NCBI GenBank assembly: GCA_041666305.1
Contig: JBAYHD010000002.1
Span: 684-64,683 of the forward strand
Direction: 5' to 3'
From: Minisyncoccota bacterium
Lineage (GTDB): Bacteria; Patescibacteriota; Minisyncoccia; Phycocordibacterales; Phycocordibacteraceae
Length of the DNA stretch: 64,000 nucleotides
The notes beneath the pieces are model-generated. The model had not been told where the DNA came from. It worked only from the letters and a program-made list of their open reading frames with translations, and did no database searches. The position numbers and the translations under genes are program-made. Below, piece by piece: positions 9,733 to 60,806 of the stretch (its first letter is position 1; every line of letters begins with the position of its first letter).

Positions 9733-9743
9733 GGGGCTGTGGC

Positions 9744-9873
9744 CCGGTAGAACAACATAGCATTGCTCATTGTGTCTAGCGTTAAATATACCTTTGACTT
9801 TCTATGTTTTTATCGGTCTCGAACCTTATTATTCGATTTGAGCGTAGACACGATGCTATGTTGTTCTAACCGG
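9744..9873. mobile_element. structured palindromic repeat element (MITE/Correia-like), copy 1 of 4
   Basis: TIRs CCGGTAGAACAACATAGCAT... / ...ATGCTATGTTGTTCTAACCGG; begins 12 nt after the mnmA stop; same family at 22006, 54208, 56994. Confidence 0.6.
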
Positions 9874-9891
9874 GTGGTATATTATTACCGC

Positions 9892-12786: not shown

Positions 12787-13451
12787 ATGTAAAAATAGAT
12801 CCGTCATGGGCGAGGCACTTGAAGGGCGAATTTGAAAAGGCTTATTTTGAAGAGCTGACGAGATTCGTGAAGAATGAATACAAAAACGGCGCCGTGTACC
12901 CAGCGCCGAAGAATATTTTTCGTGCATTCGACCTGTGCCCGTTCGAAAAAGTGAAAGTGGTTATCCTCGGACAGGACCCGTACCACGGCGTTCGTCAGGC
13001 GAACGGCCTCGCGTTCGCCGTGGAGAGCACCGAGAAAATTCCACCGTCGCTTCAAAATATTTTTAAAGAAATTGAGAGCGATCTTCACGGGCCGCTTGTG
13101 CATGCAGACGGCGACCTCTCGCGCTGGGCGAAACAGGGCGTGTTGCTCCTCAATGCAACACTCACCGTGCGAGCCGGCATAGCCGGCTCGCACCAGGAGA
13201 AGGGGTGGGAGCAATTTACCGACGCTGTCATCAAAGCGCTTTCGGAGGAACACGAACATCTCGTTTTTATGCTCTGGGGCAATTATGCGAAGGCGAAGGG
13301 CGCACACATCGACCGCAGTAAGCACCTCGTGCTTGAAGCTCCGCATCCCTCGCCATTCTCCGCCGCCTCCGGCTTTTTCGGCTGTAAGCACTTCTCTAAA
13401 GCAAATGACTACCTCGTCGCTCACAACGAAACCCCGATAGACTGGTTGTGA
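12783..13451 (+). CDS. ung: uracil-DNA glycosylase (family 1)
   Basis: [19 protein letters not shown] motifs; full length 222 aa. Confidence 0.85.
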   Translation: MNVKIDPSWARHLKGEFEKAYFEELTRFVKNEYKNGAVYPAPKNIFRAFDLCPFEKVKVVILGQDPYHGVRQANGLAFAVESTEKIPPSLQNIFKEIESDLHGPLVHADGDLSRWAKQGVLLLNATLTVRAGIAGSHQEKGWEQFTDAVIKALSEEHEHLVFMLWGNYAKAKGAHIDRSKHLVLEAPHPSPFSAASGFFGCKHFSKANDYLVAHNETPIDWL

Positions 13452-14029: not shown

Positions 14030-14374
14030 GACGGAGATTTAACACGATGGGCCGAGCAGGGCGTATTGCTCCTCAATGCCACGCTCACCGTGCGAGCCGG
14101 CATAGCCGGCTCGCACCAGGAGAAGGGGTGGGAACAATTCACCGATGCCGTTATCAAGGCACTCTCAGAAGAGCGCGAGCATCTCGTTTTCATGCTCTGG
14201 GGCAATTATGCGAAGGCGAAGGGCGCACACATCGACCGCAGTAAGCACCTCGTGCTTGAAGCTCCGCACCCCTCGCCATTCTCCGCCGCATCCGGCTTTT
14301 TCGGGTGCAAACATTTCAGCCGTGCGAACGAGTATCTTATTTCCCACAACGAAACCCCCATCGACTGGCTCTAG
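14030..14374 (+). pseudogene. orphan duplicate of the ung 3' half (about 115 codons, no proper start)
   Basis: aligns to ung 13107-13451 at roughly 90% nt identity with mostly synonymous differences (e.g. gacctctcgcgc vs gatttaacacga both DL(S/T)R); opens directly after the stop of the 13493 gene in the same frame. Confidence 0.7.
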
Positions 14375-21995: not shown

Positions 21996-22005
21996 CCCAG
22001 TTGAC

Positions 22006-22135
22006 CCGGTAGAACAACATGGCATCGTGTCTTTTGCTCCCAACAATGCAATGTCAACAAAGGCTTGTTGCTCCGGAAATTTTGATGGATAAATGGACCA
22101 TGACACAAGGAGCAATGCCATGTTGTTCTCACCGG
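22006..22135. mobile_element. structured palindromic repeat element, copy 2 of 4
   Basis: TIRs CCGGTAGAACAACATGGCAT / ATGCCATGTTGTTCTCACCGG; flanked by perfect direct repeat GTTGAC (22000-22005 and 22136-22141). Confidence 0.65.
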
Positions 22136-22197
22136 GTTGACGGCTTTTCGGATACCTGCTAGATTGATGTGGTAACTGCACTGGTAATGAATAGCAA

Positions 22198-26915: not shown

Positions 26916-26944
26916 AGAGCAAGAAACGGGGACACCCACCATTA

Positions 26945-26990
26945 ATTTCCAAACAAAAACCTCGCGTCATGCCCCGGGCGACAGGGATCC
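26945..26990 (+). repeat. island direct repeat (a): AATTTCCAAACAAAAACCTCGCGTCATGCCCCGGGCGACAGGGATCC
   Basis: five same-orientation copies at 26945, 27538, 27681, 29505, 30172. Confidence 0.65.
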
Positions 26991-27000
26991 TGATGGGGAG

Positions 27001-27519
27001 TTATTCCAGATTGTTCAAATAGCACCTAATGTCGGCACTCGACTTCAAGACAATTACTTTATCTTTGTGCTCATTAATAAATAGCATCAGTTTCGGTTTG
27101 GTTCTAAATTGGCGACGAATAATCTCGAGGAAGAAGGCAATCTCGTGTCGGATATTAAGCTCCGGATGTCTCTCCGACGGATTGAATATGCGCTGAGCGT
27201 GATTAAACAATCTGCGCCAAAGCGGAATGTCGAGAAAAATAATGACGTCGGCCCTTTTTGCGATTTCTGGTTGCACAGAACGCGTGTATAAACCGTCGGA
27301 GACCCACGAGTCTGCAGCAATCGCAGTTGCCGTCTTTTGCCTAACGAAGGTTCGCACTCGGTCGCGCTCTTCAATGGGGGCACCATCCTTCATCTGATTT
27401 CCGCCCGCCTCGAACCAGAATCGGTCGAGGTGGATGTGTGGTATAGATAATTTTTCACTAATCGCTCGCGCGAGAGTAGATTTCCCGCTCGCGGGTAACC
27501 CAACAATGCTTATACGCAT
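27001..27519 (-). CDS. P-loop NTPase / nucleotide kinase-like protein (FlaR/adenylate-kinase-like)
   Basis: Walker A GLPASGKST close to N-terminus (start taken at MRISIVG); bracketed by direct repeats (a) and (b); only minus-strand gene in island. Confidence 0.55.
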   Translation of the reverse strand: MRISIVGLPASGKSTLARAISEKLSIPHIHLDRFWFEAGGNQMKDGAPIEERDRVRTFVRQKTATAIAADSWVSDGLYTRSVQPEIAKRADVIIFLDIPLWRRLFNHAQRIFNPSERHPELNIRHEIAFFLEIIRRQFRTKPKLMLFINEHKDKVIVLKSSADIRCYLNNLE

Positions 27520-27537: not shown

Positions 27538-27580
27538 ATAATTCCCAAACAAAAACCTCGCGTCATGCCCCGGCGACCTT
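27538..27580 (+). repeat. island direct repeat (b)
   Basis: ATTCCCAAACAAAAACCTCGCGTCATGCCCCGGCGACC. Confidence 0.65.
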
Positions 27581-27601
27581 CCGTCTCAGTGAAGGTAGTA
27601 T

Positions 27602-27637: not shown

Positions 27638-27680
27638 AGCAGATTGCCTACGCTGCGCAAGGTTCGACCTTTCTCAAAAT

Positions 27681-27726
27681 AATTTCCAAACAAAAACCTC
27701 GCGTCATGTCCCCGGCGACAGGGGTC
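27681..27726 (+). repeat. island direct repeat (c)
   Basis: AATTTCCAAACAAAAACCTCGCGTCATGTCCCCGGCGACAGGGG. Confidence 0.65.
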
Positions 27727-27824
27727 TAGAGCAGGAGTATTTGACTGAATGACTTAAGAGCATATGATTCCAGTCAGACACACAAGTAGTTCCCACCAAT
27801 GCTTGCAGACAGAAGGAGTTCGTC

Positions 27825-29455: not shown

Positions 29456-29500
29456 GTTCCGCCCTCAACGAAAACCGTTGGAGGGCGGTTTTCATTTTTA
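29455..29500 (+). terminator. rho-independent terminator
   Basis: ccgccctcaacgaaaaccgttggagggcgg then TTTTCATTTTT. Confidence 0.65.
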
Positions 29501-29504
29501 GGCT

Positions 29505-29546
29505 CAACACAAAAAACTCGCGTCATTCCCCCGGCGACAGGGATCC
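29505..29546 (+). repeat. island direct repeat (d)
   Basis: CAACACAAAAAACTCGCGTCATTCCCCCGGCGACAGGGATCC immediately after terminator. Confidence 0.6.
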
Positions 29547-29654
29547 TCAGTCGAGTAGAGGGGCTTGACTTACATACTGTTTCGTAGTATCGTACGCACA
29601 GAGGTTTCTTCTCTACCTTAAAGAGACGCCCTTTTCCAGAATGAAGGAGAGATC

Positions 29655-30172: not shown

Positions 30173-30215
30173 TCCCAATTTCCAAACAAAAACCTCACTT
30201 CATGCTCTGGCGATA
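30172..30215 (+). repeat. island direct repeat (e), most diverged
   Basis: AATTTCCAAACAAAAACCTCACTTCATGCTCTGGCGATATTCC. Confidence 0.5.
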
Positions 30216-30365
30216 TTCCTCAACCCATCTCTGTTGAAATTAGACTTCAACAAGGGGTGGGAATGATTATCCACAGGCCTCCCAGGACACTTGACAAATC
30301 ATGTTCGCTATGCTAGCCTGTACACAGGTCAAACCAGCTTTCCAACCATCTCTGCGGAGGTAGCG

Positions 30366-32645: not shown

Positions 32646-32724
32646 CCCCATATGACAACTTTTATATTGATAACGAAATAATTTTTGCTAGCACGGTTGA
32701 TAAAAGTTGTCATACGGGGCATAG
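32646..32724 (+). promoter_or_regulatory. 18-bp inverted repeat (candidate operator) overlapping a TTGATA...CATAGT promoter upstream of grpE
   Basis: CCCCATATGACAACTTTT (32646-32663) vs AAAAGTTGTCATACGGGG (32702-32719), 17/18 complementary, 38-bp spacer; -35 TTGATA 32696-32701, -10 CATAGT 32719-32724. Confidence 0.4.
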
Positions 32725-51555: not shown

Positions 51556-52992
51556 ATGAACATACTCCTTAAAAAAGGAACCGGAGCGAGCGTCCCGAAA
51601 GGGTACGTGCGCATACGGATAACGGAAGAGTCAAAAGGCACGAAGCGTCTCGTGAAAGAGCAGGGGATAGAAACGCTTGAGCTTGGCGCGGGGAAATATG
51701 CAGAAATGAACATGCGCAGGTTCATAGTGCTTTGTCGTTCCCTGGTGCAGTCGGCAAAAAAGAACAAGCTCAAAAAAATCGCAATTCAATTCGATGATAC
51801 GGTGCAACTGTTCAAGAAACTCAAGGGCGTACCGCCAGAAGAACTCATACAACTTGCGGCCGAAAATTTCGAGATGGCGAATTTCGAATTCAATATATTC
51901 AAAACGAAACCAAAAGAAGGCTGGCACGCAGTGGAAGAAATACTTTTATACGGACGTTCATCTGCAGCGCTTGAAAAAGCATTGCGAAAGGGGCAGGAGA
52001 TCGGAAAAGCGGTGAACGCCTGCCGCACGCTCGCAAACACTCCCGGCGGCGACATGACCCCGGCTTTACTCGCAAAATCCGCGAAGAGCGCGATGAAAGG
52101 CCTGCCGGTCAAAGTAACCACCCTCGGCACGAGAGAAATGAAAAAACTCGGTATGGGAGCCCTGCTCGGCGTTGCGAAAGGCTCCACCGAAGCGCCGACG
52201 TTCACCATTTTAGAGTACAAAGGAGGGAAAGGTGCTCCCATTGTGCTTGCGGGAAAGGGCATCACGTTCGATAGTGGAGGGCTCAATTTGAAGCCTTCAA
52301 GCGGAATGTATGAGATGCATATGGATATGTCGGGCGCTGCCGCAGTCATTCATGCGGTAGCACTCGCTGCACGACTGAAACTGAAACGACACGTTATCGG
52401 CCTTATTCCGGCGGCGGAGAATATGCCGGGTAACAATGCCGTCCGCCCGGGCGATGTGTTGAAGTCGCTTTCGGGGAAAACAATTGAAATACTCGACACT
52501 GATGCGGAAGGCAGGCTCATCCTCGCGGACGCGCTCACGTATGCAAAACGATTCAAACCTGCGGTGGTGATCGATGCGGCGACCTTGACCGGAGCAGCGA
52601 TGTCGGCACTCGGACTTCATGCGAGTGCGCTCCTCACGCGCGATGACGCCCTTGCAGAACAGATCTCGCGCGCCGGCGAAGCATCGGGTGATTATGTGTG
52701 GCGATTGCCGCTCTGGGACGAATACGAAGACCGTGTTAAAGGAGAATTCGCCGATATCAAGAATGTCCCCGGCGGTTCCACGAGCCGATACGGCGGTGCG
52801 ATCGACGGCGGGATGTTCCTCTGGCAATTCGCAAAGGAACTTGATTGCCCGTGGGCGCATCTGGATATTGCTCCTCGCATGACTTCCGCGCCGAATGACG
52901 AACTTGCAAAAGGCGCCGCGGGAACGCCGGTGCGACTCCTGATACACTTTATAGAACATGCCCCGTATGATTACTCAACAACAAAGCGATAA
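51556..52992 (+). CDS. pepA: leucyl aminopeptidase (M17)
   Basis: NTPGGDMTP, DTDAEGRL, GAAM motifs. Confidence 0.85.
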   Translation: MNILLKKGTGASVPKGYVRIRITEESKGTKRLVKEQGIETLELGAGKYAEMNMRRFIVLCRSLVQSAKKNKLKKIAIQFDDTVQLFKKLKGVPPEELIQLAAENFEMANFEFNIFKTKPKEGWHAVEEILLYGRSSAALEKALRKGQEIGKAVNACRTLANTPGGDMTPALLAKSAKSAMKGLPVKVTTLGTREMKKLGMGALLGVAKGSTEAPTFTILEYKGGKGAPIVLAGKGITFDSGGLNLKPSSGMYEMHMDMSGAAAVIHAVALAARLKLKRHVIGLIPAAENMPGNNAVRPGDVLKSLSGKTIEILDTDAEGRLILADALTYAKRFKPAVVIDAATLTGAAMSALGLHASALLTRDDALAEQISRAGEASGDYVWRLPLWDEYEDRVKGEFADIKNVPGGSTSRYGGAIDGGMFLWQFAKELDCPWAHLDIAPRMTSAPNDELAKGAAGTPVRLLIHFIEHAPYDYSTTKR

Positions 52993-53048
52993 TATGAGAT
53001 TGTACAGATTACTAGCAACCGCAGTTGAGGCGAATAATCATACGGGGT

Positions 53049-54174: not shown

Positions 54175-54207
54175 CACTCTAATTACATCCCCAGAAGAAG
54201 CCGTTGC

Positions 54208-54340
54208 CCGGTAGGACAACTTGGCATCAGGTTTTTGCTTCGTACAACATTCAATCACGTTTCCATTGGTAAGAAGCCATAAACAAGATCCCTTGCCAAA
54301 ACAAACTATCCCCAGAAGCAATGCCAAGTAGTCCTCACCG
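54208..54340. mobile_element. structured palindromic repeat element, copy 3 of 4 (with compensatory arm changes)
   Basis: TIRs CCGGTAGGACAACTTGGCAT / ATGCCAAGTAGTCCTCACCGG; flanking CGTTGC at 54202-54207 and 54342-54347. Confidence 0.65.
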
Positions 54341-54380
54341 GGCGTTGCCGTAGAGGTGCGGCACGACTATACTGAGACCA

Positions 54381-54953
54381 ATGCTCACGCCTCCCGCCGC
54401 AGCCCACGCCCTCCTCTTTGCTTCCGGAGAACCGCTTGAAAAAAAGCAGTTGGCGAAGCTATTAGAAATTAAAGAATCGGAAATCGCTTTGGTCCTAAAA
54501 GCGCTCACGGACTCGCTCCAAAATAGCGGCGTCGTAGTCGTGGAGACTGATACTGAAGTAGAGCTTCGCACGGCTCCCGAGGCGTCTATCATCGTGAAGA
54601 AACTCCGCGAGAGCGAGCTCGCACGCGACCTCGGGAAAGCAAGTTTGGAAACGCTTGCGGTCATCGCGTACGGTACCGGCCCCAACGGGGCCCCCTTCGG
54701 GGGCACGACGCGCGGAGAGATAGATTGGGTGCGCGGCGTCAATTCTTCAACGTCGTTGCGGACTCTTCTCATGCGCGGACTTATTGAGGGGAAGGAGGAT
54801 GAACGCGACAAACGCCGTATCCGCTACAGCCTCACTACCGAAGCGTTCGCGCATCTGGGCATAAAAAATGCATCGGAGCTCCCGCGAGCAAGGGAGCTCA
54901 GTGCCGCGGCGGGAAATATCATCAAAGAAGAATCCGCGGCAGAAGCTGCATAA
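54381..54953 (+). CDS. scpB: segregation and condensation protein B
   Basis: LLFASGEPL, winged-helix repeats; contains ~8-aa GPNGAPFGG insertion relative to typical ScpB (memory of family). Confidence 0.8.
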   Translation: MLTPPAAAHALLFASGEPLEKKQLAKLLEIKESEIALVLKALTDSLQNSGVVVVETDTEVELRTAPEASIIVKKLRESELARDLGKASLETLAVIAYGTGPNGAPFGGTTRGEIDWVRGVNSSTSLRTLLMRGLIEGKEDERDKRRIRYSLTTEAFAHLGIKNASELPRARELSAAAGNIIKEESAAEAA

Positions 54954-55907: not shown

Positions 55908-56987
55908 ATGATCACTTCGAACATCATCAAGGTATTCATTCCCGCGACGGCATCGTTCGCCGTGGGAATTCTGTTAGCGCCGCTCCTCACGCATTATTTG
56001 TACAAATATCGAGTGTGGAAAAAAGTGGCGAGCAAGACGGCGCTCGACGGTACGCCGGCGGTCGAATTTGAGAAGCTTCGCACAAGCGTGCACACCGGTA
56101 CCGAGACCTCCACACCGAGGATGGGCGGTATTCTCATATGGACGAGCGTCACAATCGTCACGCTCGGTGTCTGGCTTCTTGCCCGTCTCATTCCCATCCC
56201 GCTCACTGAAAAACTCGATTTCCTCAGCCGCAGCCAAACGTGGATACCGCTTTTTTCTCTGCTTGCGGGAGCACTCATGGGCCTCGTGAACGATATTCTG
56301 GACATTCACCCCTCGGGTGAACGCGGCGTGCGACTACGCACCCGATTACTTTTTGTCACCGTTGTTTCAGCGTTCATCGGTTGGTGGTTCTATGCAAAAC
56401 TCGGCGTTGATGCCATCGGCATCCCCGGCGACGGCACATTCACGCTCGGTGCGCTTATCATCCCTCTTTTTGTCATCATCACGCTCGGATTGTATGCCGG
56501 CGGCGTCATCGACGGTATTGATGGACTCGCCGGCGGGGTTTTCAGTACTGCCTTCATGGCATACGCCGGCATTGCGTATTTTCAGAATCAAATTAACTTG
56601 GCGGCCTTTTCCGCCACGCTCACGGGCGCAATTCTCGCCTTCCTTTGGTTCAACATCCCTCCCGCGCGATTCTGGATGACCGAGACCGGAACTATGGGTC
56701 TCACTATGACGCTCGCGGTCATCGCGTTTTTGACCGACACGCCGGGGAACGGCTATGGCCTCAGCGCACTGCCCATCATTGCGTTCCCGCTCGTCATCAC
56801 CGTCCTTTCAAATATCATTCAAGTGACTTCCAAAAAACTGCGCGGCGGAAAAAAAGTATTTCGCATAGCGCCCCTGCACCACCACTTTGAGGCTATCGGC
56901 TGGCCGTCCTATAAAGTGACGATGCGCTATTGGATCATTTCCATCGTGTGCGCTATCGTCGGCATGACCGTCGCGCTTCTCAAGTAA
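55908..56987 (+). CDS. mraY: phospho-N-acetylmuramoyl-pentapeptide transferase
   Basis: VIDGIDGLAGG, APLHHHFE motifs, 10 TM helices. Confidence 0.9.
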   Translation: MITSNIIKVFIPATASFAVGILLAPLLTHYLYKYRVWKKVASKTALDGTPAVEFEKLRTSVHTGTETSTPRMGGILIWTSVTIVTLGVWLLARLIPIPLTEKLDFLSRSQTWIPLFSLLAGALMGLVNDILDIHPSGERGVRLRTRLLFVTVVSAFIGWWFYAKLGVDAIGIPGDGTFTLGALIIPLFVIITLGLYAGGVIDGIDGLAGGVFSTAFMAYAGIAYFQNQINLAAFSATLTGAILAFLWFNIPPARFWMTETGTMGLTMTLAVIAFLTDTPGNGYGLSALPIIAFPLVITVLSNIIQVTSKKLRGGKKVFRIAPLHHHFEAIGWPSYKVTMRYWIISIVCAIVGMTVALLK

Positions 56988-56993
56988 CCATGC

Positions 56994-57127
56994 CCGGTAG
57001 GACAACATGGCATCGTGTCGTCTTTGCTCCAGTCGTGAGCAGGGCAACAAGCGTTCGTTGCCATTCGTACGTTTTAAACATTATGGAGATGCTGACACAT
57101 GGAGTAATGCCATGTTGTCCTCACCGG
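56994..57127. mobile_element. structured palindromic repeat element, copy 4 of 4
   Basis: TIRs CCGGTAGGACAACATGGCAT / ATGCCATGTTGTCCTCACCGG; begins 6 nt after the mraY stop and ends 2 nt before the ftsW ATG. Confidence 0.65.
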
Positions 57128-57129
57128 GT

Positions 57130-58230
57130 ATGAGAAAGTTCGTCTCCGGCGATCGCATGTTCTTTATGCTCGTCCTGGCCATTGTGCTTTTGGGGCTTGC
57201 GATTTTTTCCTCCGCGGCGCTTGGACTTCTCGCACGCGAGAGCAGTTCGGTATCAAAAGACATCATGCTCCAGGCCGGACTCGGTTTTGGTCTCGGATTC
57301 CTAGCCCTTCTCATTGCACGCGCCATTCCGCTTGTGCACATTAAGCGCTTCGCACCGTATATTTACGGAGCCTCCATCCTATTTACCGCGCTTGTGTTCG
57401 TGCCCGGCATCGGACTGCATGCAAATGGCGCTACCCGCTGGATAAGCCTCGGATTCACCACGGTCCAGCCGTCTGAATTTCTGAAGATCGGTTTTGTCAT
57501 TGCGCTTGCCTGGTGGCTCACTCCGCGTGCGCGGCAACTTTCCAGTTACAAAAGCGGGCTGTTCCCCTTTATCATTATGCTCGCTATTCCCACGGCGCTC
57601 TTGCTCGCTCAGCCGAATACGTCCACGACGCTCCTCATCATCGTTACCGGCGCAGTCATGTATTTTGCCGCGGGAGCGCCGTGGCGCGACTTCGGCATTC
57701 TCGCACTGACCGCGATCATCGGGCTTGTCATTATCGCCATGATCCGGCCGTACGTGCTTGAACGCGTAAAAACATTCATCGATCCATCCGCCAATTCGCT
57801 TTCGAGCGGCTATCAAATACAGCAATCGCTCATCGCCATCGGTTCGGGCGGTTTGCTCGGCAGGGGATTCGGTCAAAGCGTAGAGAAATTCAATTATCTG
57901 CCGGAACCTGACGGTGATTCCGTGTTCGCCGTGTTTGCGGAAGAAACCGGATTTCTCGGCGCCATTTTTCTACTGGCGCTTTTTGTCGCGCTCGCGGCAC
58001 GCGGTATCGTGATAGCGGGGGATTCGCGCGATCTTTTCGGCGGTCTCATTGCGCTCGGATTTTCATTCATCATCATTTTCCAAGCGTTCGTCAATATGTG
58101 CGCGATGCTCGGCATCATCCCGCTCACCGGCTTGCCGCTGCCATTCGTTTCTCACGGCGGCACGGCGCTCATGGCTGCCCTTATTATGTGCGGCCTCATT
58201 CTCAATGTCGCGGCTCATCGTAAAAACTAG
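57130..58230 (+). CDS. ftsW: SEDS family peptidoglycan glycosyltransferase FtsW/RodA
   Basis: 10 TM, conserved SEDS motifs; start ATG 57130 (MRKFVSG); track ORF 57007 starts inside the repeat element. Confidence 0.85.
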   Translation: MRKFVSGDRMFFMLVLAIVLLGLAIFSSAALGLLARESSSVSKDIMLQAGLGFGLGFLALLIARAIPLVHIKRFAPYIYGASILFTALVFVPGIGLHANGATRWISLGFTTVQPSEFLKIGFVIALAWWLTPRARQLSSYKSGLFPFIIMLAIPTALLLAQPNTSTTLLIIVTGAVMYFAAGAPWRDFGILALTAIIGLVIIAMIRPYVLERVKTFIDPSANSLSSGYQIQQSLIAIGSGGLLGRGFGQSVEKFNYLPEPDGDSVFAVFAEETGFLGAIFLLALFVALAARGIVIAGDSRDLFGGLIALGFSFIIIFQAFVNMCAMLGIIPLTGLPLPFVSHGGTALMAALIMCGLILNVAAHRKN

Positions 58231-58305: not shown

Positions 58306-59445
58306 ATGACCATCGCGTTCACAGGAGGAGGCACCGGCGGGCACTTCTATCCCATCATTGCCATCAGCGAGGCGCTCGGCGATCTCGTACGCGAGAAGCA
58401 TCTTATTGAGCCGAAGCTGTATTATCTTGCGCCGAATTCCTTTGATGAAAAGGCGCTCTTTGAGAACGGCATTGCCTACATCCGCATACCGGCAGGGAAG
58501 ATGCGTCGCTATTTTTCGCTGATGAATATCACTGATTCATTTGTCACTTTTTTCGGAACGATATCGGCACTCGTCACGCTCTACCGCCTTTATCCGGACG
58601 TCGTGGTCTCTAAAGGCGGGTACGGCAGCGTGCCGACCGTGCTTGCGGCTCGCATCCTGCGCATCCCCATCATCATTCACGAATCGGATGCAAAACCGGG
58701 CCGCGCAAATCTGCTTGCCGCCAAATTCGCAACGAAGATAGCCATCTCTTTTGAAAGCGCGGCGGCATTTTTCCCGGAGAACGTTCGTGCCAAAATAGCC
58801 CGCACCGGCATTCCAATACGCAAGGCGCTCATGCGCATTGAGCCCGAAGGTGCGCGGCAGTATCTCGGACTCGAAAAAGATACCCCGACGATCCTTATTC
58901 TCGGCGGTTCTCAAGGCGCGGTGAAAATAAACGAGGTTATTTTGTCGTCCCTTCCGGACCTCGTTTCAAGCGCCAATATCATACATCAAACCGGTCAGGC
59001 GAATATCAAGGACGTCGAGTCGATTTCGCAAGTCATTCTTGCGAAATCCAAGAACGCGGACCGATACCATCCGGTCAATTACCTCACCGAAATTTCGCTC
59101 CAGCGGGCCGCCGGCGTCGCAGACCTCATCATCTCGCGCGCTGGCGCGAACAGTATCGCTGAAATAGGCCTCTGGAAAAAACCGGCCATTCTCGTTCCTA
59201 TTCCGGAATCCATCAGTCATGATCAGCGCACGAACGCCTACAGTTACGCGCGCACCGGAGCCGCCATCGTACTCGAAGAAGGAAATCTGACGCCCCATGT
59301 ACTCGTGTCGGAGGTTCGACGCATTCTCGATGATAAGGCGCTTGCAAAACGCATGGGCACATCTGCCGCAGGATTCACCGATCCGGATGCCGCGCGCATT
59401 CTTGCGAACGAAATATTGCAGATATCGCTCGCGCACGAATCATGA
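58306..59445 (+). CDS. murG: UDP-GlcNAc--MurNAc-pentapeptide-undecaprenol GlcNAc transferase
   Basis: GGGTGGHFYP N-terminal G-loop, GT28 C-terminal domain. Confidence 0.85.
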   Translation: MTIAFTGGGTGGHFYPIIAISEALGDLVREKHLIEPKLYYLAPNSFDEKALFENGIAYIRIPAGKMRRYFSLMNITDSFVTFFGTISALVTLYRLYPDVVVSKGGYGSVPTVLAARILRIPIIIHESDAKPGRANLLAAKFATKIAISFESAAAFFPENVRAKIARTGIPIRKALMRIEPEGARQYLGLEKDTPTILILGGSQGAVKINEVILSSLPDLVSSANIIHQTGQANIKDVESISQVILAKSKNADRYHPVNYLTEISLQRAAGVADLIISRAGANSIAEIGLWKKPAILVPIPESISHDQRTNAYSYARTGAAIVLEEGNLTPHVLVSEVRRILDDKALAKRMGTSAAGFTDPDAARILANEILQISLAHES

Positions 59446-60806
59446 GCACCGTCGTTACTCGTTTCGCTCCTTCGCCAACCGGATACTTACACGCCGGCAA
59501 TTACCGCACTGCCGTATTCGCATATCTTTTCGCGAAGCACGAAGGAGGGAAATTCATTGTGCGGATAGAGGACACTGATGTTGCGCGCTCCAAGCCTGAA
59601 TACGTAGCGAACATTCCCGAAATCCTCAAGTGGCTCCGATTACCGGCTGATGAATCATATCGACAAAGTGAGCATCGGCCACGACATCGAGAATTGCTTG
59701 AAAAACTTATCGCTGAAGATACGGCATATGTCTCAAAAGAAACGCCGCAAGCCCCGGGTGATAGGGAAGAGGTCATTCGTTTTAGGAACCCTGGTGGGAC
59801 CGTTACGTTCACTGATATCATTCGCGGCGATATAACGACCGATGTTACCGACCTCGGCGACTTCATCATTGCTCGTTCTCTCGATGAGCCAGTATTTCAC
59901 TTCGCAGTGGTTGTGGATGATGCTGATGAAGGTGTTACGCATGTCATTCGTGGCGGCGACCATATCTCGAACACTGCGCGCCAAATGCTTATTCAGCGTG
60001 CGCTGGGTCTCCCTCTGCCGCTCTATGCACATCTGCCGCTCATCATGGATAGCACTCACAAGAAGCTTTCAAAGCGTGCGGGTGCAAAATCGTTAGCTGA
60101 CTATCGCGATATGGGAATCTTGCCAGAGGCGCTTCTTAACTATCTCGCGTTCCTTGGCTGGAATCCCGGCGATAATCGCGAGTACATGACGCGAGAAGAA
60201 TTGGTTGGAGCGTTTGATCTCTCGCGTGTTCAGAAAGGAAGCGCCATCTTTGATGAAGTGAAATTGTTGTCGGTGAATCAGCACTGGATGCGCGCCCTTC
60301 CTGACGAAAAATTCCTCGCCCATGTGTGGGACTTACGAAGTCCCACATCTGATGTGGGACTTCGTAAGTCCCACAATTCCGAAATAATCACGAAAATCGT
60401 GCCGCTTCTGAAAGAACGCGCGCAGACGTTCGAAGAGGTGCGCGAGATGCTTGCCCGCGAGCTTTCCTTCTTTTTTTCAGACCCAAAAATTGACCTACAG
60501 CAGCTTGTCTTGAAGGAGCCTGCAGACCGTCCGGGAATGACCAAAATGGCTCTAGAAAGCCTGTTTGAGGCCATAAACAGCCTTCCGAAGGGCGTTTCTA
60601 GCGAGGCGGTAAAAGAGGCCCTTATGCCGCTTGCCGATGCCGAGGAGGCAAAAGGGAAGGGAGGCCGTGGAGCCGTGTTATGGCCATTGCGCTACGCCCT
60701 TTCTGGAGAAGAGCGGTCGCCAGACCCATTCACTATCATAAGCATACTTGGAACGAAAGATTCCATTTCTCGACTTCAGGCCGCTCTTGGTATACTTAAA
60801 GGATGA
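59442..60806 (+). CDS. gltX: glutamyl-tRNA synthetase carrying an in-frame 51-bp double palindrome
   Basis: PSPTGYLHAGN, KLSKR motifs; palindromic segment 60325-60375 encodes WDLRSPTSDVGLRKSH. Confidence 0.9.
   Translation: MSTVVTRFAPSPTGYLHAGNYRTAVFAYLFAKHEGGKFIVRIEDTDVARSKPEYVANIPEILKWLRLPADESYRQSEHRPRHRELLEKLIAEDTAYVSKETPQAPGDREEVIRFRNPGGTVTFTDIIRGDITTDVTDLGDFIIARSLDEPVFHFAVVVDDADEGVTHVIRGGDHISNTARQMLIQRALGLPLPLYAHLPLIMDSTHKKLSKRAGAKSLADYRDMGILPEALLNYLAFLGWNPGDNREYMTREELVGAFDLSRVQKGSAIFDEVKLLSVNQHWMRALPDEKFLAHVWDLRSPTSDVGLRKSHNSEIITKIVPLLKERAQTFEEVREMLARELSFFFSDPKIDLQQLVLKEPADRPGMTKMALESLFEAINSLPKGVSSEAVKEALMPLADAEEAKGKGGRGAVLWPLRYALSGEERSPDPFTIISILGTKDSISRLQAALGILKG
60325..60375. repeat. 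in-frame double palindrome: two 23-bp perfect palindromes TGTGGGACTT(ACG/CGT)AAGTCCCACA separated by 5 nt
   Basis: each unit 9-bp stem + 3-nt centre; whole 51-bp segment nearly self-complementary so both strands encode similar peptides (track ORF 60278 minus). Confidence 0.6.

What the first reader, a model, noticed from the sequence alone, without database searches (positions are those of the whole stretch)
56985..57132. Repeat elements are wedged exactly between coding sequences and contribute promoter/start context
Copy 4 begins 6 nt after the mraY stop and its last TIR base is 2 nt before the ftsW ATG (…CTCACCGGGTATG), inside the conserved mraY-ftsW-murG cluster. At copy 2 the 3' flank GTTGACg forms a TTGACG -35 with a TAGATT -10 17 bp downstream, ahead of infA. 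At copy 1 the 3' flank runs straight into a TGGTATATT extended -10 and a leaderless ATG 9892. The elements therefore may act as 3' hairpins for the upstream gene and carry or create expression signals for the downstream one, as described for Neisseria Correia elements.
Basis: partly seen in the sequence, partly recalled or inferred. Interest (0 to 1): 0.6.

Follow-up and report, generated by a model that had tools for sequence, protein, structure and literature searches.

The report
Miniature transposon nested at start codons
The repeat between mraY and ftsW is one of four copies of a small non-coding transposon of Patescibacteria that inserts into (T/C)ATG or TTG motifs, so it lands on start codons and promoter boxes and re-creates them by duplicating its 4-bp target rather than bringing signals of its own.

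Summary
A 136-nt element (56993-57128) with 21-nt terminal inverted repeats fills the mraY-ftsW junction. Three more copies lie at 9743, 22005 and 54207.

The element is a MITE with a 4-bp target-site duplication (TSD). Relatives without the element already have mraY-TAA-C-TATG-ftsW, the infA promoter TTGACG-17-TAGATT and the scpB promoter.

Collection scans found 34 more copies in other Patescibacteria, about 21 independent sites in all. Fourteen sites have a (T/C)ATG duplication whose right-hand ATG is the start codon of the next gene (ftsW, mreB, rsmH, ftsX, fmt, ahpC and others). All fourteen have the bulged arm next to the gene. Other copies sit in -35 TTG boxes.

The terminal stem and two sub-terminal helices covary. 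No promoter, terminator or Rfam family matches.

Unresolved: how the downstream genes are still translated behind a hairpin that sequesters their AUG (-76 kcal/mol for copy 4 with flanks). My best guess is upstream-ATG translation or RNase III opening the stem.

The element also makes gene callers extend FtsW to 407 aa.

The parts
56993..57128 (+). Copy 4 of the MITE (136 nt), between mraY and ftsW
   Evidence: Perfect 15-nt arm core. The full 21/22-nt arms pair with one bulged C at 57122. R1 covariance model 104 bits.
56989..56992 (+). Left copy of the target-site duplication (CATG). Its ATG (56990) opens a 47-codon ORF through the element.
   Evidence: The empty site in L041-L044 reads TAACTATGAAG.
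57129..57132 (+). Right copy of the target-site duplication (TATG). Its ATG (57130) is the ftsW start codon.
56993..57013 (+). Left terminal inverted repeat (un-bulged arm), CCCGGTAGGACAACATGGCAT
57107..57128 (+). Right terminal inverted repeat with a 1-nt bulge (C57122), ATGCCATGTTGTCCTCACCGGG. It contains ATG 57107 and ATG 57112; the latter is in frame with ftsW.
57014..57030 (+). Left sub-terminal segments a (CGTGTC, 57014-57019) and b (GCTCC, 57026-57030)
   Evidence: Both covary with their partners a' and b'.
57094..57105 (+). Right sub-terminal segments a' (GACAC, 57094-57098) and b' (GGAGT, 57101-57105, Shine-Dalgarno-like)
56990..57133 (+). ORF from the duplicated ATG through the whole element. 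Its TGA overlaps the ftsW ATG (ATGA).
   Evidence: MPGRTTWHRV...PHRV*; also listed as part of ORF 56930-57133.
55908..56987 (+). mraY
   Evidence: Pfam Glycos_transf_4.
57130..58230 (+). ftsW (366 aa, true start). The 57007 start (407 aa) is an annotation artefact.
9743..9874 (+). Copy 1 (132 nt). Flanks TGG/TGG. The right flank is the extended -10 TGGTATATT (9875-9883), followed by the leaderless ATG 9892.
22005..22136 (+). Copy 2 (132 nt). TSD TTGA at 22001-22004 and 22137-22140; the right copy is part of the infA -35 TTGACG.
54207..54342 (+). Copy 3 (136 nt). Duplication (C)GTTG; the right copy is part of the scpB -35 TTGCCG (54345-54350). The -10 TATACT is at 54368-54373 and the leaderless ATG at 54381.

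Best explanation
The repeats are copies of a non-autonomous DNA transposon (a MITE) of Paceibacterota/Kaiserbacteria-like Patescibacteria. The elements are 131-142 nt long, with one 109-nt deletion variant. They have 21-nt terminal inverted repeats and one obligatory bulged base in the right arm.

Shown. The (unidentified) transposase makes a 4-bp staggered cut, preferentially in (T>C)ATG and less often in NTTG or TTGA. Each copy is therefore flanked by a duplicate of that tetranucleotide. In these streamlined genomes, non-coding (T/A)TG motifs are largely start codons, -35 boxes (TTGnnn) and extended -10 TG motifs. The duplication regenerates the motif on the gene-proximal side. That is why the element appears 'wedged exactly' and seems to contribute the ATG or the -35. 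The signals are pre-existing host sequence.

Inferred. Copies survive at start codons because the downstream gene keeps an intact ATG and can still be translated. The transcript still starts at the old promoter or reads through from the upstream gene. Ribosomes then start at the upstream duplicate of the ATG, either as a leaderless 5' AUG or by re-initiation after the upstream stop. They read MPGRTTWH... into the left arm and melt the 21-25-bp stem that otherwise sequesters the real AUG. Initiation or re-initiation at the real AUG follows. In copy 4 this ORF stops at a TGA overlapping the ftsW ATG. RNase III cleavage of the long stem is an alternative or additional way to free the AUG.

My confidence that it is a MITE whose TSD regenerates host signals is about 0.9. 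My confidence in the translation-relay step is about 0.35.
For: TIRs, dispersed copies and hairpin folds: (z-scores -4.9 to -8.1).

Exact 4-bp direct repeats at 38 copies in the window and in other Patescibacteria MAGs and metagenomes.

Empty orthologous sites holding a single copy of the tetranucleotide:
- ftsW in L041-L044 (...CTCAAATAACTATGAAGAAG) and L045
- the infA promoter CCCAGTTGACGG...TAGATT in L048-L054
- the scpB promoter in L045
- two further genes in L022 and L027
- MTase-gene empties read by gene callers as ...RAWYFIGM N-terminal extensions

Start-codon association. At all 14 independent (T/C)ATG sites a long ORF starts at the right-hand ATG. The genes are ftsW, mreB, rsmH, ftsX, fmt, ahpC, a methyltransferase, an exonuclease and others. 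Only about one third of non-coding TATG sites in the window are start codons (22 of 66). No conserved target positions lie outside the 4 bp.

No cargo signals. No promoter or terminator lies inside the copies, and the promoters lie in the flank.

Host context. The genome uses many leaderless genes, with a -10 box 6-8 nt before the ATG.

Relay step. The upstream-ATG ORF always spans the left arm, and in 6 of 15 representative start-codon copies (about half of the independent sites) it runs to within 9 nt of the gene's ATG or overlaps it. The two TSD copies pair and bury the AUG in the predicted fold.
Against: - No autonomous IS with these ends was found, so the transposase family is unknown.
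- Both collection scans required intact arms, so decayed copies are under-sampled.
- Open frames through the element are only marginally enriched (P about 0.04 in two frames), and stop triplets are not depleted on the sense strand relative to the antisense strand.
- In about half of the sites the upstream-ATG ORF stops 60-80 nt before the gene, so a simple stop-start relay is not general.
- The strict orientation at TATG sites could be mechanistic, because the target and the arms are both asymmetric. Only three sites have a palindromic CATG target.
- There are no transcript or ribosome data.
Confidence: 0.75

Rival explanations
1. Correia-like reading. The element itself carries outward-facing promoter or start signals, or creates them at its junctions, and thereby drives the downstream gene.
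For: A good sigma-70-type promoter starts right at the junction of copies 2 and 3. An extended -10 abuts copy 1. The right sub-terminal part carries a Shine-Dalgarno-like GGAG 7 nt before an ATG in the arm, and that ATG is in frame with the gene's ATG.
Against: - The same promoters and the same start codon are present in relatives without the element.
- The junction bases are the target-site duplication.
- No promoter-like site lies inside any copy.
- The internal ATG is absent from the CCAAGT subfamily, and the GGAG is absent from several copies.
- Both are base-paired in the fold.
Confidence: 0.07
2. Domesticated structured leader. After insertion the element is kept by host-level selection as a cis-acting RNA module at the 5' edge of essential genes, for example a hairpin gate or switch that couples the gene's translation to upstream translation or to an RNase. 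The fixed orientation would reflect that function.
For: - 14 of 14 start-codon copies share one orientation, whereas non-start copies occur in both.
- The terminal stem and two mutually crossing sub-terminal helices (CGTGTC/GACAC and GCTCC/GGAGC) show compensatory changes: 14 pairs with double changes against 7.6 in shuffles, and 93% of cells paired against 33-45% when the partner is slid.
- The bulge is never lost in 32 distinct copies, although its base varies.
- At the methyltransferase locus the arms are 98.7% identical. The sub-terminal parts are 81%, the interior 68%, the upstream flank 53% and third codon positions 52% identical.
- A 109-nt deletion variant keeps both arms.
Against: - Element-bearing and empty alleles are interspersed in the methyltransferase tree.
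- One element-bearing allele sits in a tract of about 600 nt at 95-100% identity between genomes that are otherwise about 72% identical. This points to spread by recombination rather than long vertical retention.
- Element and gene distances are not correlated.
- Arm conservation is also what selection for transposability gives, and detection required intact arms.
- Covariation among copies partly reflects subfamily descent.
Confidence: 0.25
3. RNA-processing or 3'-end hairpin. The co-transcribed 21-25-bp stem is an RNase III substrate and/or a 3' exonuclease barrier. It would separate the upstream and downstream cistrons, stabilise the upstream mRNA, and leave a short unstructured leader before the regenerated AUG. 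This is not exclusive of the main explanation.
For: The stem is long and nearly perfect, with free energies of -46 to -64 kcal/mol, and lies 5-32 nt after the upstream stop. The bulge sits at a fixed position. RNase III cleavage at the TIR stem is documented for Correia elements, and RNase E effects for ERIC (PMC10969869, read).
Against: No transcript data exist. No U-tract follows the stem, so it is not an intrinsic terminator. No RNase III motif was found in the DNA fetched here, which is uninformative because only a small part of each genome is held.
Confidence: 0.3
4. Start-site targeting. The transposase does not merely prefer a tetranucleotide. It is directed to transcription or translation start regions, for example melted promoter DNA at the start site of leaderless genes. 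That would explain why insertions are found only in -35, extended -10 and start-codon positions.
For: All 21 sites lie in a start codon or close to a gene start, several of them in a recognisable promoter box. Start codons here are mostly preceded by a pyrimidine, as transcription start sites are. Many targets are leaderless genes.
Against: Several targets are operon-internal stop-start junctions with no recognisable promoter: mraY-ftsW and the rsmH and exonuclease loci, with 4-7 nt between the stop and the element. One start codon lies inside the upstream ORF (def/fmt). Purifying selection in a genome that is about 90% coding can produce the same picture.
Confidence: 0.1

Closest known systems
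Correia repeat-enclosed elements (CREE/NEMIS) of Neisseria
   Same: Both are small (about 100-155 bp) non-autonomous elements with long TIRs. Both are found immediately upstream of genes, are co-transcribed as long stem-loops, and are candidate RNase III substrates (PMC10969869; PMC2229807).
   Different: Correia duplicates TA, has TA termini, and carries its own -35/-10 boxes and an IHF site. This element has CCCGG/CCGGG termini and a 4-bp (T/C)ATG or NTTG duplication. No promoter-like site was found in it. The promoters next to it exist without it. The phylum is also different.
ERIC and YPAL elements of enterobacteria and Yersinia
   Same: They are intergenic palindromic MITE-like repeats, co-transcribed with neighbouring genes. 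Orientation matters for mRNA fate, and filled and empty sites are seen between relatives.
   Different: Those lie mostly at 3' ends or anywhere in intergenic DNA and have TA-type targets. No start-codon nesting is reported for them. Here 14 of about 21 sites are exactly at start codons.
Rickettsia palindromic elements (RPE)
   Same: Palindromic mobile elements of about 100-150 bp that reduced genomes tolerate in very constrained positions, and that gene callers read as protein.
   Different: RPEs insert in frame inside ORFs and are translated as part of the protein. Here, element plus duplication is not consistently a multiple of 3 (lengths 131-142). The element sits before codon 1, and the in-frame 407-aa FtsW is an artefact.
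Hairpin-bridged or structure-coupled translation starts (phage T4 genes 38 and 25; translational coupling by ribosome unwinding, as in RNA phages). Cited from my own knowledge, not tested.
   Same: A stable hairpin lies next to a start codon. Its formation or melting by an upstream ribosome decides access to the AUG.
   Different: Those are fixed features of single genes. Here the hairpin would be delivered by a mobile element to many genes, and the mechanism is only inferred.

Membership tests
MITE (non-autonomous DDE-type transposon) | Terminal inverted repeats | tested here: met
   The 21/22-nt arms pair in 96% of cells across 32 distinct copies.
MITE (non-autonomous DDE-type transposon) | Target-site duplication of fixed length, present once in empty sites | tested here: met
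   4-bp direct repeats flank 36 of 38 copies exactly or with one mismatch; window copies 1 and 3 give 3- and 5-bp repeats. Single copies are seen at the empty ftsW, infA, scpB, ahpC and other loci.
MITE (non-autonomous DDE-type transposon) | Small size, no conserved coding capacity, several dispersed copies | tested here: met
   Elements are 109-142 nt. Reading frames differ between copies. There are 4 copies in 64 kb and 34 more in other genomes.
MITE (non-autonomous DDE-type transposon) | A cognate autonomous IS with the same ends | tested here: inconclusive
   No solitary arms or long elements were found in the roughly 350 kb fetched.
Correia / CREE / NEMIS | TA target duplication and 5'-TA-3' termini | tested here: not met
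   The termini are CCCGG...CCGGG and the duplication is 4 bp. The defining features are as tabulated in PMC2229807.
Correia / CREE / NEMIS | Promoter boxes carried by the element ends | tested here: not met
   No promoter-like site lies inside any copy. The adjacent promoters are present in relatives without the element.
Correia / CREE / NEMIS | RNase III cleavage of the transcribed TIR stem; IHF site | not testable with these tools
   Only the predicted stem is available.
REP / REPIN (RAYT-mobilised) | No target duplication; short GTAG-headed palindromes; linked RAYT gene | tested here: not met
   A true TSD co-varies on both flanks. GTAG does occur in the arm, and a weak Y1_Tnp gene exists in L045, but the duplications exclude the single-strand Y1 mechanism.
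Rickettsia palindromic elements | In-frame insertion inside ORFs, translated | tested here: not met
   Insertions lie before codon 1. Element length plus 4 is not consistently divisible by 3.
Intrinsic terminator | G+C-rich hairpin followed by a U-tract | tested here: not met
   No terminator-like site was found at any copy, and the right flanks are TATG, TTGA and similar.
Any Rfam RNA family | Match to a curated covariance model | tested here: not met
   Only two tRNAs were found in the window at gathering score. There were no hits at E<=1 on 56950-57170.

The most novel reading that the evidence does not exclude
The element is more than a tolerated parasite. It would be a mobile, structured 5' module specialised for start codons of leaderless or translationally coupled genes. 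Its stem (held by selection, with a fixed bulge and two alternative sub-terminal helices, one of them Shine-Dalgarno-like) would gate the regenerated AUG. The gene would then be translated only after an upstream ribosome or an RNase opens the stem. This would be a transposon-delivered translational coupling or processing device, spreading between Patescibacteria by transposition and recombination.
Probability: 0.2. Interest if true: 0.8.

Novelty: new variant of a known kind. Interest (0 to 1): 0.58.

Why it matters
1. It corrects a tempting misreading. Signals at the junctions of a transposon can be its target-site duplication, so 'the element creates a promoter or start' has to be checked against empty sites.

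2. I found no description of a bacterial MITE family whose insertions sit exactly on start codons of essential genes, in one orientation, in some of the most streamlined genomes known. A 2024 review of prokaryotic MITEs does not mention start codons or ribosome-binding sites, and a genome-wide MITE survey does not mention Patescibacteria. The family gives a natural experiment on how SD-less or leaderless initiation copes with a stable hairpin next to the AUG.

3. There is a practical consequence. Gene callers extend or mis-start the downstream proteins (FtsW is called as 407 aa instead of 366). The element also marks recombination tracts between lineages.

Tried and rejected
- In-frame N-terminal extension of FtsW from ATG 57007: rejected because homologues are mostly 365-366 aa.
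- Conserved element-encoded peptide: rejected because the frames differ between copies.
- Selection for open frames through the element: only marginal (P about 0.04), with no sense/antisense asymmetry of stop triplets.
- Known RNA family: none found.
- Promoter or terminator inside the element: none found.
- REPIN/RAYT or IS200-type mobilisation, and an attC-like recombination site: considered because of GTAG, the hairpin and the bulge, but rejected because the flanking repeats are true, site-specific duplications.
- Autonomous partner IS: not found in the fetched loci.
- Copies on viral contigs: two single-arm chance hits, with no element by the model.
- RNase III motif in the fetched DNA: none found, which is uninformative.
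- Single ancient insertion at the methyltransferase gene: not supported, given the patchy tree and the absence of a distance correlation. I therefore do not claim host-level selection from the arm conservation.
- Extra conserved target positions beyond 4 bp: none.
Full report
WHAT IS THERE

Positions 56993-57128 hold a 136-nt element. Its ends are CCCGGTAGGACAACATGGCAT and ATGCCATGTTGTCCT(C)ACCGGG, and they pair over 21 bp with one bulged base, C57122. The element starts 5 nt after the mraY stop codon (TAA, 56985-56987) and ends 1 nt before the ftsW ATG (57130). Pfam confirms MraY, FtsW, MurG, IF-1 and ScpB.

Three further copies lie at 9743-9874, 22005-22136 and 54207-54342. The arm core occurs 10 times with at most 3 mismatches, against 1.17 expected. 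A covariance model built later finds no additional copy in the window. The interiors differ strongly between copies. All four copies fold into long hairpins, with z-scores of -4.9 to -8.1.

THE ORGANISM AND THE TRUE ftsW START

FtsW homologues identify a Patescibacteria genome (Paceibacterota, Kaiserbacteria or Minisyncoccia type). Nearly all of the 120 homologues are 365-366 aa and begin MK(K)FVSGDR. ftsW therefore starts at 57130. The 407-aa ORF from ATG 57007, inside the left arm, is a gene-caller artefact. It is how the gene is recorded on the source contig.

THE KEY OBSERVATION: A 4-bp TARGET-SITE DUPLICATION

One scan of species-representative genomes and one scan of metagenome contigs, using the arm sequences, returned 34 more copies in other Patescibacteria. 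The single-arm hits in unrelated phyla have no partner arm and are chance matches.

When all 38 copies are oriented alike, each is flanked by a short direct repeat; in 36 of the 38 the 4 bp match exactly or with one mismatch. The repeat is:
- TATG in most copies
- CATG, CTTG or GTTG in others
- TTGA in window copy 2
- CAAA or CAAG in two copies that are reversed relative to the gene they abut

In window copy 1 the repeat is TGG. In copy 3 it is (C)GTTG, possibly 5 bp.

Empty orthologous sites contain the tetranucleotide once:
- In a relative whose FtsW is 94% identical, the junction reads ...CTCAAATAA-C-TATG-AAGAAG, a 2-nt mraY-ftsW spacer. In a more distant relative the two genes overlap as ATGA.
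- Seven contigs of relatives read CCCAGTTGACGGCTTTTCGGATACCTGCTAGATTG before infA. The TTGACG-17-TAGATT promoter is therefore there without the element.
- L045 has GGCGTTGCCG-17-TATACT-7-ATG before scpB without the element.
- Two further genes have empty sites in L022 and L027.

This is the signature of a cut-and-paste or replicative DDE-type transposon. With no conserved coding capacity, the element is a MITE.

The junction signals are target duplication plus flank. The element did not bring or create them:
- copy 4: the ftsW ATG
- copy 2: the -35 of the infA promoter
- copy 3: the -35 of the scpB promoter
- copy 1: the TG of the extended -10

No promoter-like or terminator-like site lies inside any copy. 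The 'exact wedging' is explained by the target preference and by the fact that the duplication regenerates the motif on the gene side.

WHAT IS UNUSUAL

The copies collapse to about 21 independent sites. At 14 of them the duplication is (T/C)ATG (11 TATG-type, 3 CATG-type). At every one of these a long ORF begins exactly at the right-hand ATG.

The genes at these sites include ftsW, mreB, rsmH (mraW), ftsX, fmt, a peroxiredoxin, a methyltransferase and an exonuclease. At the fmt site the start codon lies inside the 3' end of def.

In this window only 22 of 66 non-coding TATG sites are start codons. Eleven of eleven at start codons is therefore very unlikely under a random choice among non-coding TATG sites, roughly 6e-6. 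No target positions outside the 4 bp are conserved.

All 14 start-codon copies have the un-bulged arm upstream and the bulged arm next to the gene. The seven other sites include two reversed copies.

The contexts are of two kinds. Some are leaderless genes with a -10 box 6-8 nt before the ATG. Others are operon-internal stop-start junctions with 4-15 nt between the stop and the element. None has a Shine-Dalgarno sequence.

A second, shorter family with related termini (CCCCGTATGA...) behaves in the same way at the scpA start codon, 52961-53047.

STRUCTURE

On an alignment of 32 distinct copies, three helices show compensatory changes:
- the terminal stem
- the sub-terminal helix CGTGTC/GACAC
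- the sub-terminal helix GCTCC/GGAGC

In total, 93% of cells are paired, against 33-45% when the partner is slid. There are 14 pairs with changes on both sides, against 7.6 in shuffles. The two sub-terminal helices cross each other, so they are alternatives or a pseudoknot.

The bulge is present in every copy, with a variable base (A, C or G). With flanks included, the two TSD copies pair and bury the gene's AUG at the base of a 25-bp stem, at -76 kcal/mol for copy 4.

No Rfam family matches.

HOW THE DOWNSTREAM GENE COULD STILL BE EXPRESSED (INFERENCE)

The upstream duplicate of the ATG keeps its original context, either the -10 box and transcription start or the upstream stop codon. It opens an ORF, MPGRTTWH..., that always spans the left arm. 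A ribosome starting there would unwind the stem and free the real AUG.

In copy 4 this ORF has 47 codons and ends at a TGA overlapping the ftsW ATG. In 6 of 15 representative start-codon copies, about half of the independent sites, it reaches within 9 nt of the gene's ATG or overlaps it. In the rest it stops mid-element. The enrichment of open frames is marginal, at P about 0.04.

The right sub-terminal GGAG, followed 7 nt later by an in-frame ATG, is present in many copies but not all. RNase III cleavage of the stem, as documented for Correia elements (PMC10969869), is an equally plausible way to free the AUG. Neither mechanism can be tested here.

IS IT KEPT BY THE HOST?

At the methyltransferase locus the identities are:
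- arms 98.7%
- sub-terminal parts 81%
- interior 68%
- upstream flank 53%
- third codon positions 52%

That pattern looks like constraint, but there are four reasons for caution:
- Element-bearing and empty alleles are interspersed in the gene tree.
- Element and gene distances do not correlate.
- At the rsmH locus the element lies in a tract of about 600 nt at 95-100% identity between genomes that are otherwise about 72% identical, so it spread by recombination.
- My scans required intact arms.

Arm conservation may therefore reflect selection for transposability rather than host function. I leave domestication as a rival, at about 0.25.

COMPARISON WITH KNOWN ELEMENTS

The element works like the classic bacterial MITEs (Correia, ERIC/YPAL, RPE) in being a small, palindromic, co-transcribed repeat. 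It fails the defining Correia features, namely the TA target and termini and the promoter boxes on the element (PMC2229807). It is not a REPIN (true duplications), not an RPE (not in-frame inside ORFs), and not a terminator.

I found no description of MITEs nested on start codons or of this family. The 2024 review of prokaryotic MITEs has no mention of start codons or ribosome-binding sites. A genome-wide MITE survey has no mention of Patescibacteria.

VERDICT

This is a new MITE family with an unusual start-codon and promoter-box target. The signals at its edges are host signals regenerated by the target duplication. The mechanism that keeps the downstream essential genes expressed is the open and interesting question.

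Noticed in passing
window 52961-53047 and 32646-32719: A second, shorter MITE-like family (87 and 74 nt) has related termini, CCCCGTATGA...TCATACGGGG. The first copy has TSD CATG/TATG, and its right ATG (53049) is the scpA start; the pepA ORF runs into the element and stops there. The second copy has TSD CATA/CATA in a divergent intergenic region.
   Followed up: partly
window 26943-27001, 27539-27597, 27680-27738, 29499-29557, 30177-30219: Five copies of a 43-59-nt direct repeat (TAATTTCCAAACAAAAACCTCGCGTCATGCCCCGGCGACAGGG...) lie between genes of the ribosomal-protein region. Its nature was not determined.
   Followed up: no
window 60325-60375: A perfect 25+25-nt palindrome (1-nt centre) lies inside the glutamyl-tRNA synthetase ORF (59442-60806), encoding ...VWDLRSPTSDVGLRKSH.... 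It may be an in-frame palindromic insertion.
   Followed up: no
window 13107-13406 and 14030-14329: A 300-nt direct repeat (86% identity). Each copy contains the palindrome GTGCGAGCCGGCATAGCCGGCTCGCAC.
   Followed up: no
window-wide, e.g. 3460, 4610, 13493, 20781, 36030, 40458, 54381, 58306, 60803: Many genes look leaderless, with an extended -10 (TGnTAnnnT) 6-8 nt before the ATG. A minority have AAGGAG-type Shine-Dalgarno sequences. Start codons are preceded by C or T in 49 of 67 genes.
   Followed up: partly
window 57007-58230; L001 7100-8323: Public gene calls record FtsW as 407 aa, starting at an ATG inside the element's left arm. The true protein is 366 aa.
   Followed up: yes
L045 587-1294: A relative has a 235-aa gene with a weak Y1_Tnp (IS200/RAYT-type) Pfam hit just upstream of the scpB promoter, followed by a short palindrome (GTGTGCATACCTGGTATGCACAAC). 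This is where the window has copy 3.
   Followed up: no
L053 4317-4453: A diverged member of the family (35 bits with model R1; arms CCCGAACACTCAACTCGGCAT / ATGCCGAATTGAGTGTGCGGG) lies directly after the rpsD stop and before rpoA. The family is therefore broader than the arm pattern used for the scans.
   Followed up: partly
L028 2287-2419 vs L032 1435-1567: The element at the rsmH start codon is 100% identical in two genomes and sits in a tract of about 600 nt at 95-100% identity. The rest of the locus is about 72% identical, which points to a recombination tract carrying the element.
   Followed up: partly
L039 944-1078 vs L015 3861-5264: def and fmt are fused into one 468-aa ORF in L015. 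In L039 they are separate, and the element sits on the fmt start codon, which lies inside the def 3' end. As a result def ends at the TAG of the element's left arm.
   Followed up: partly
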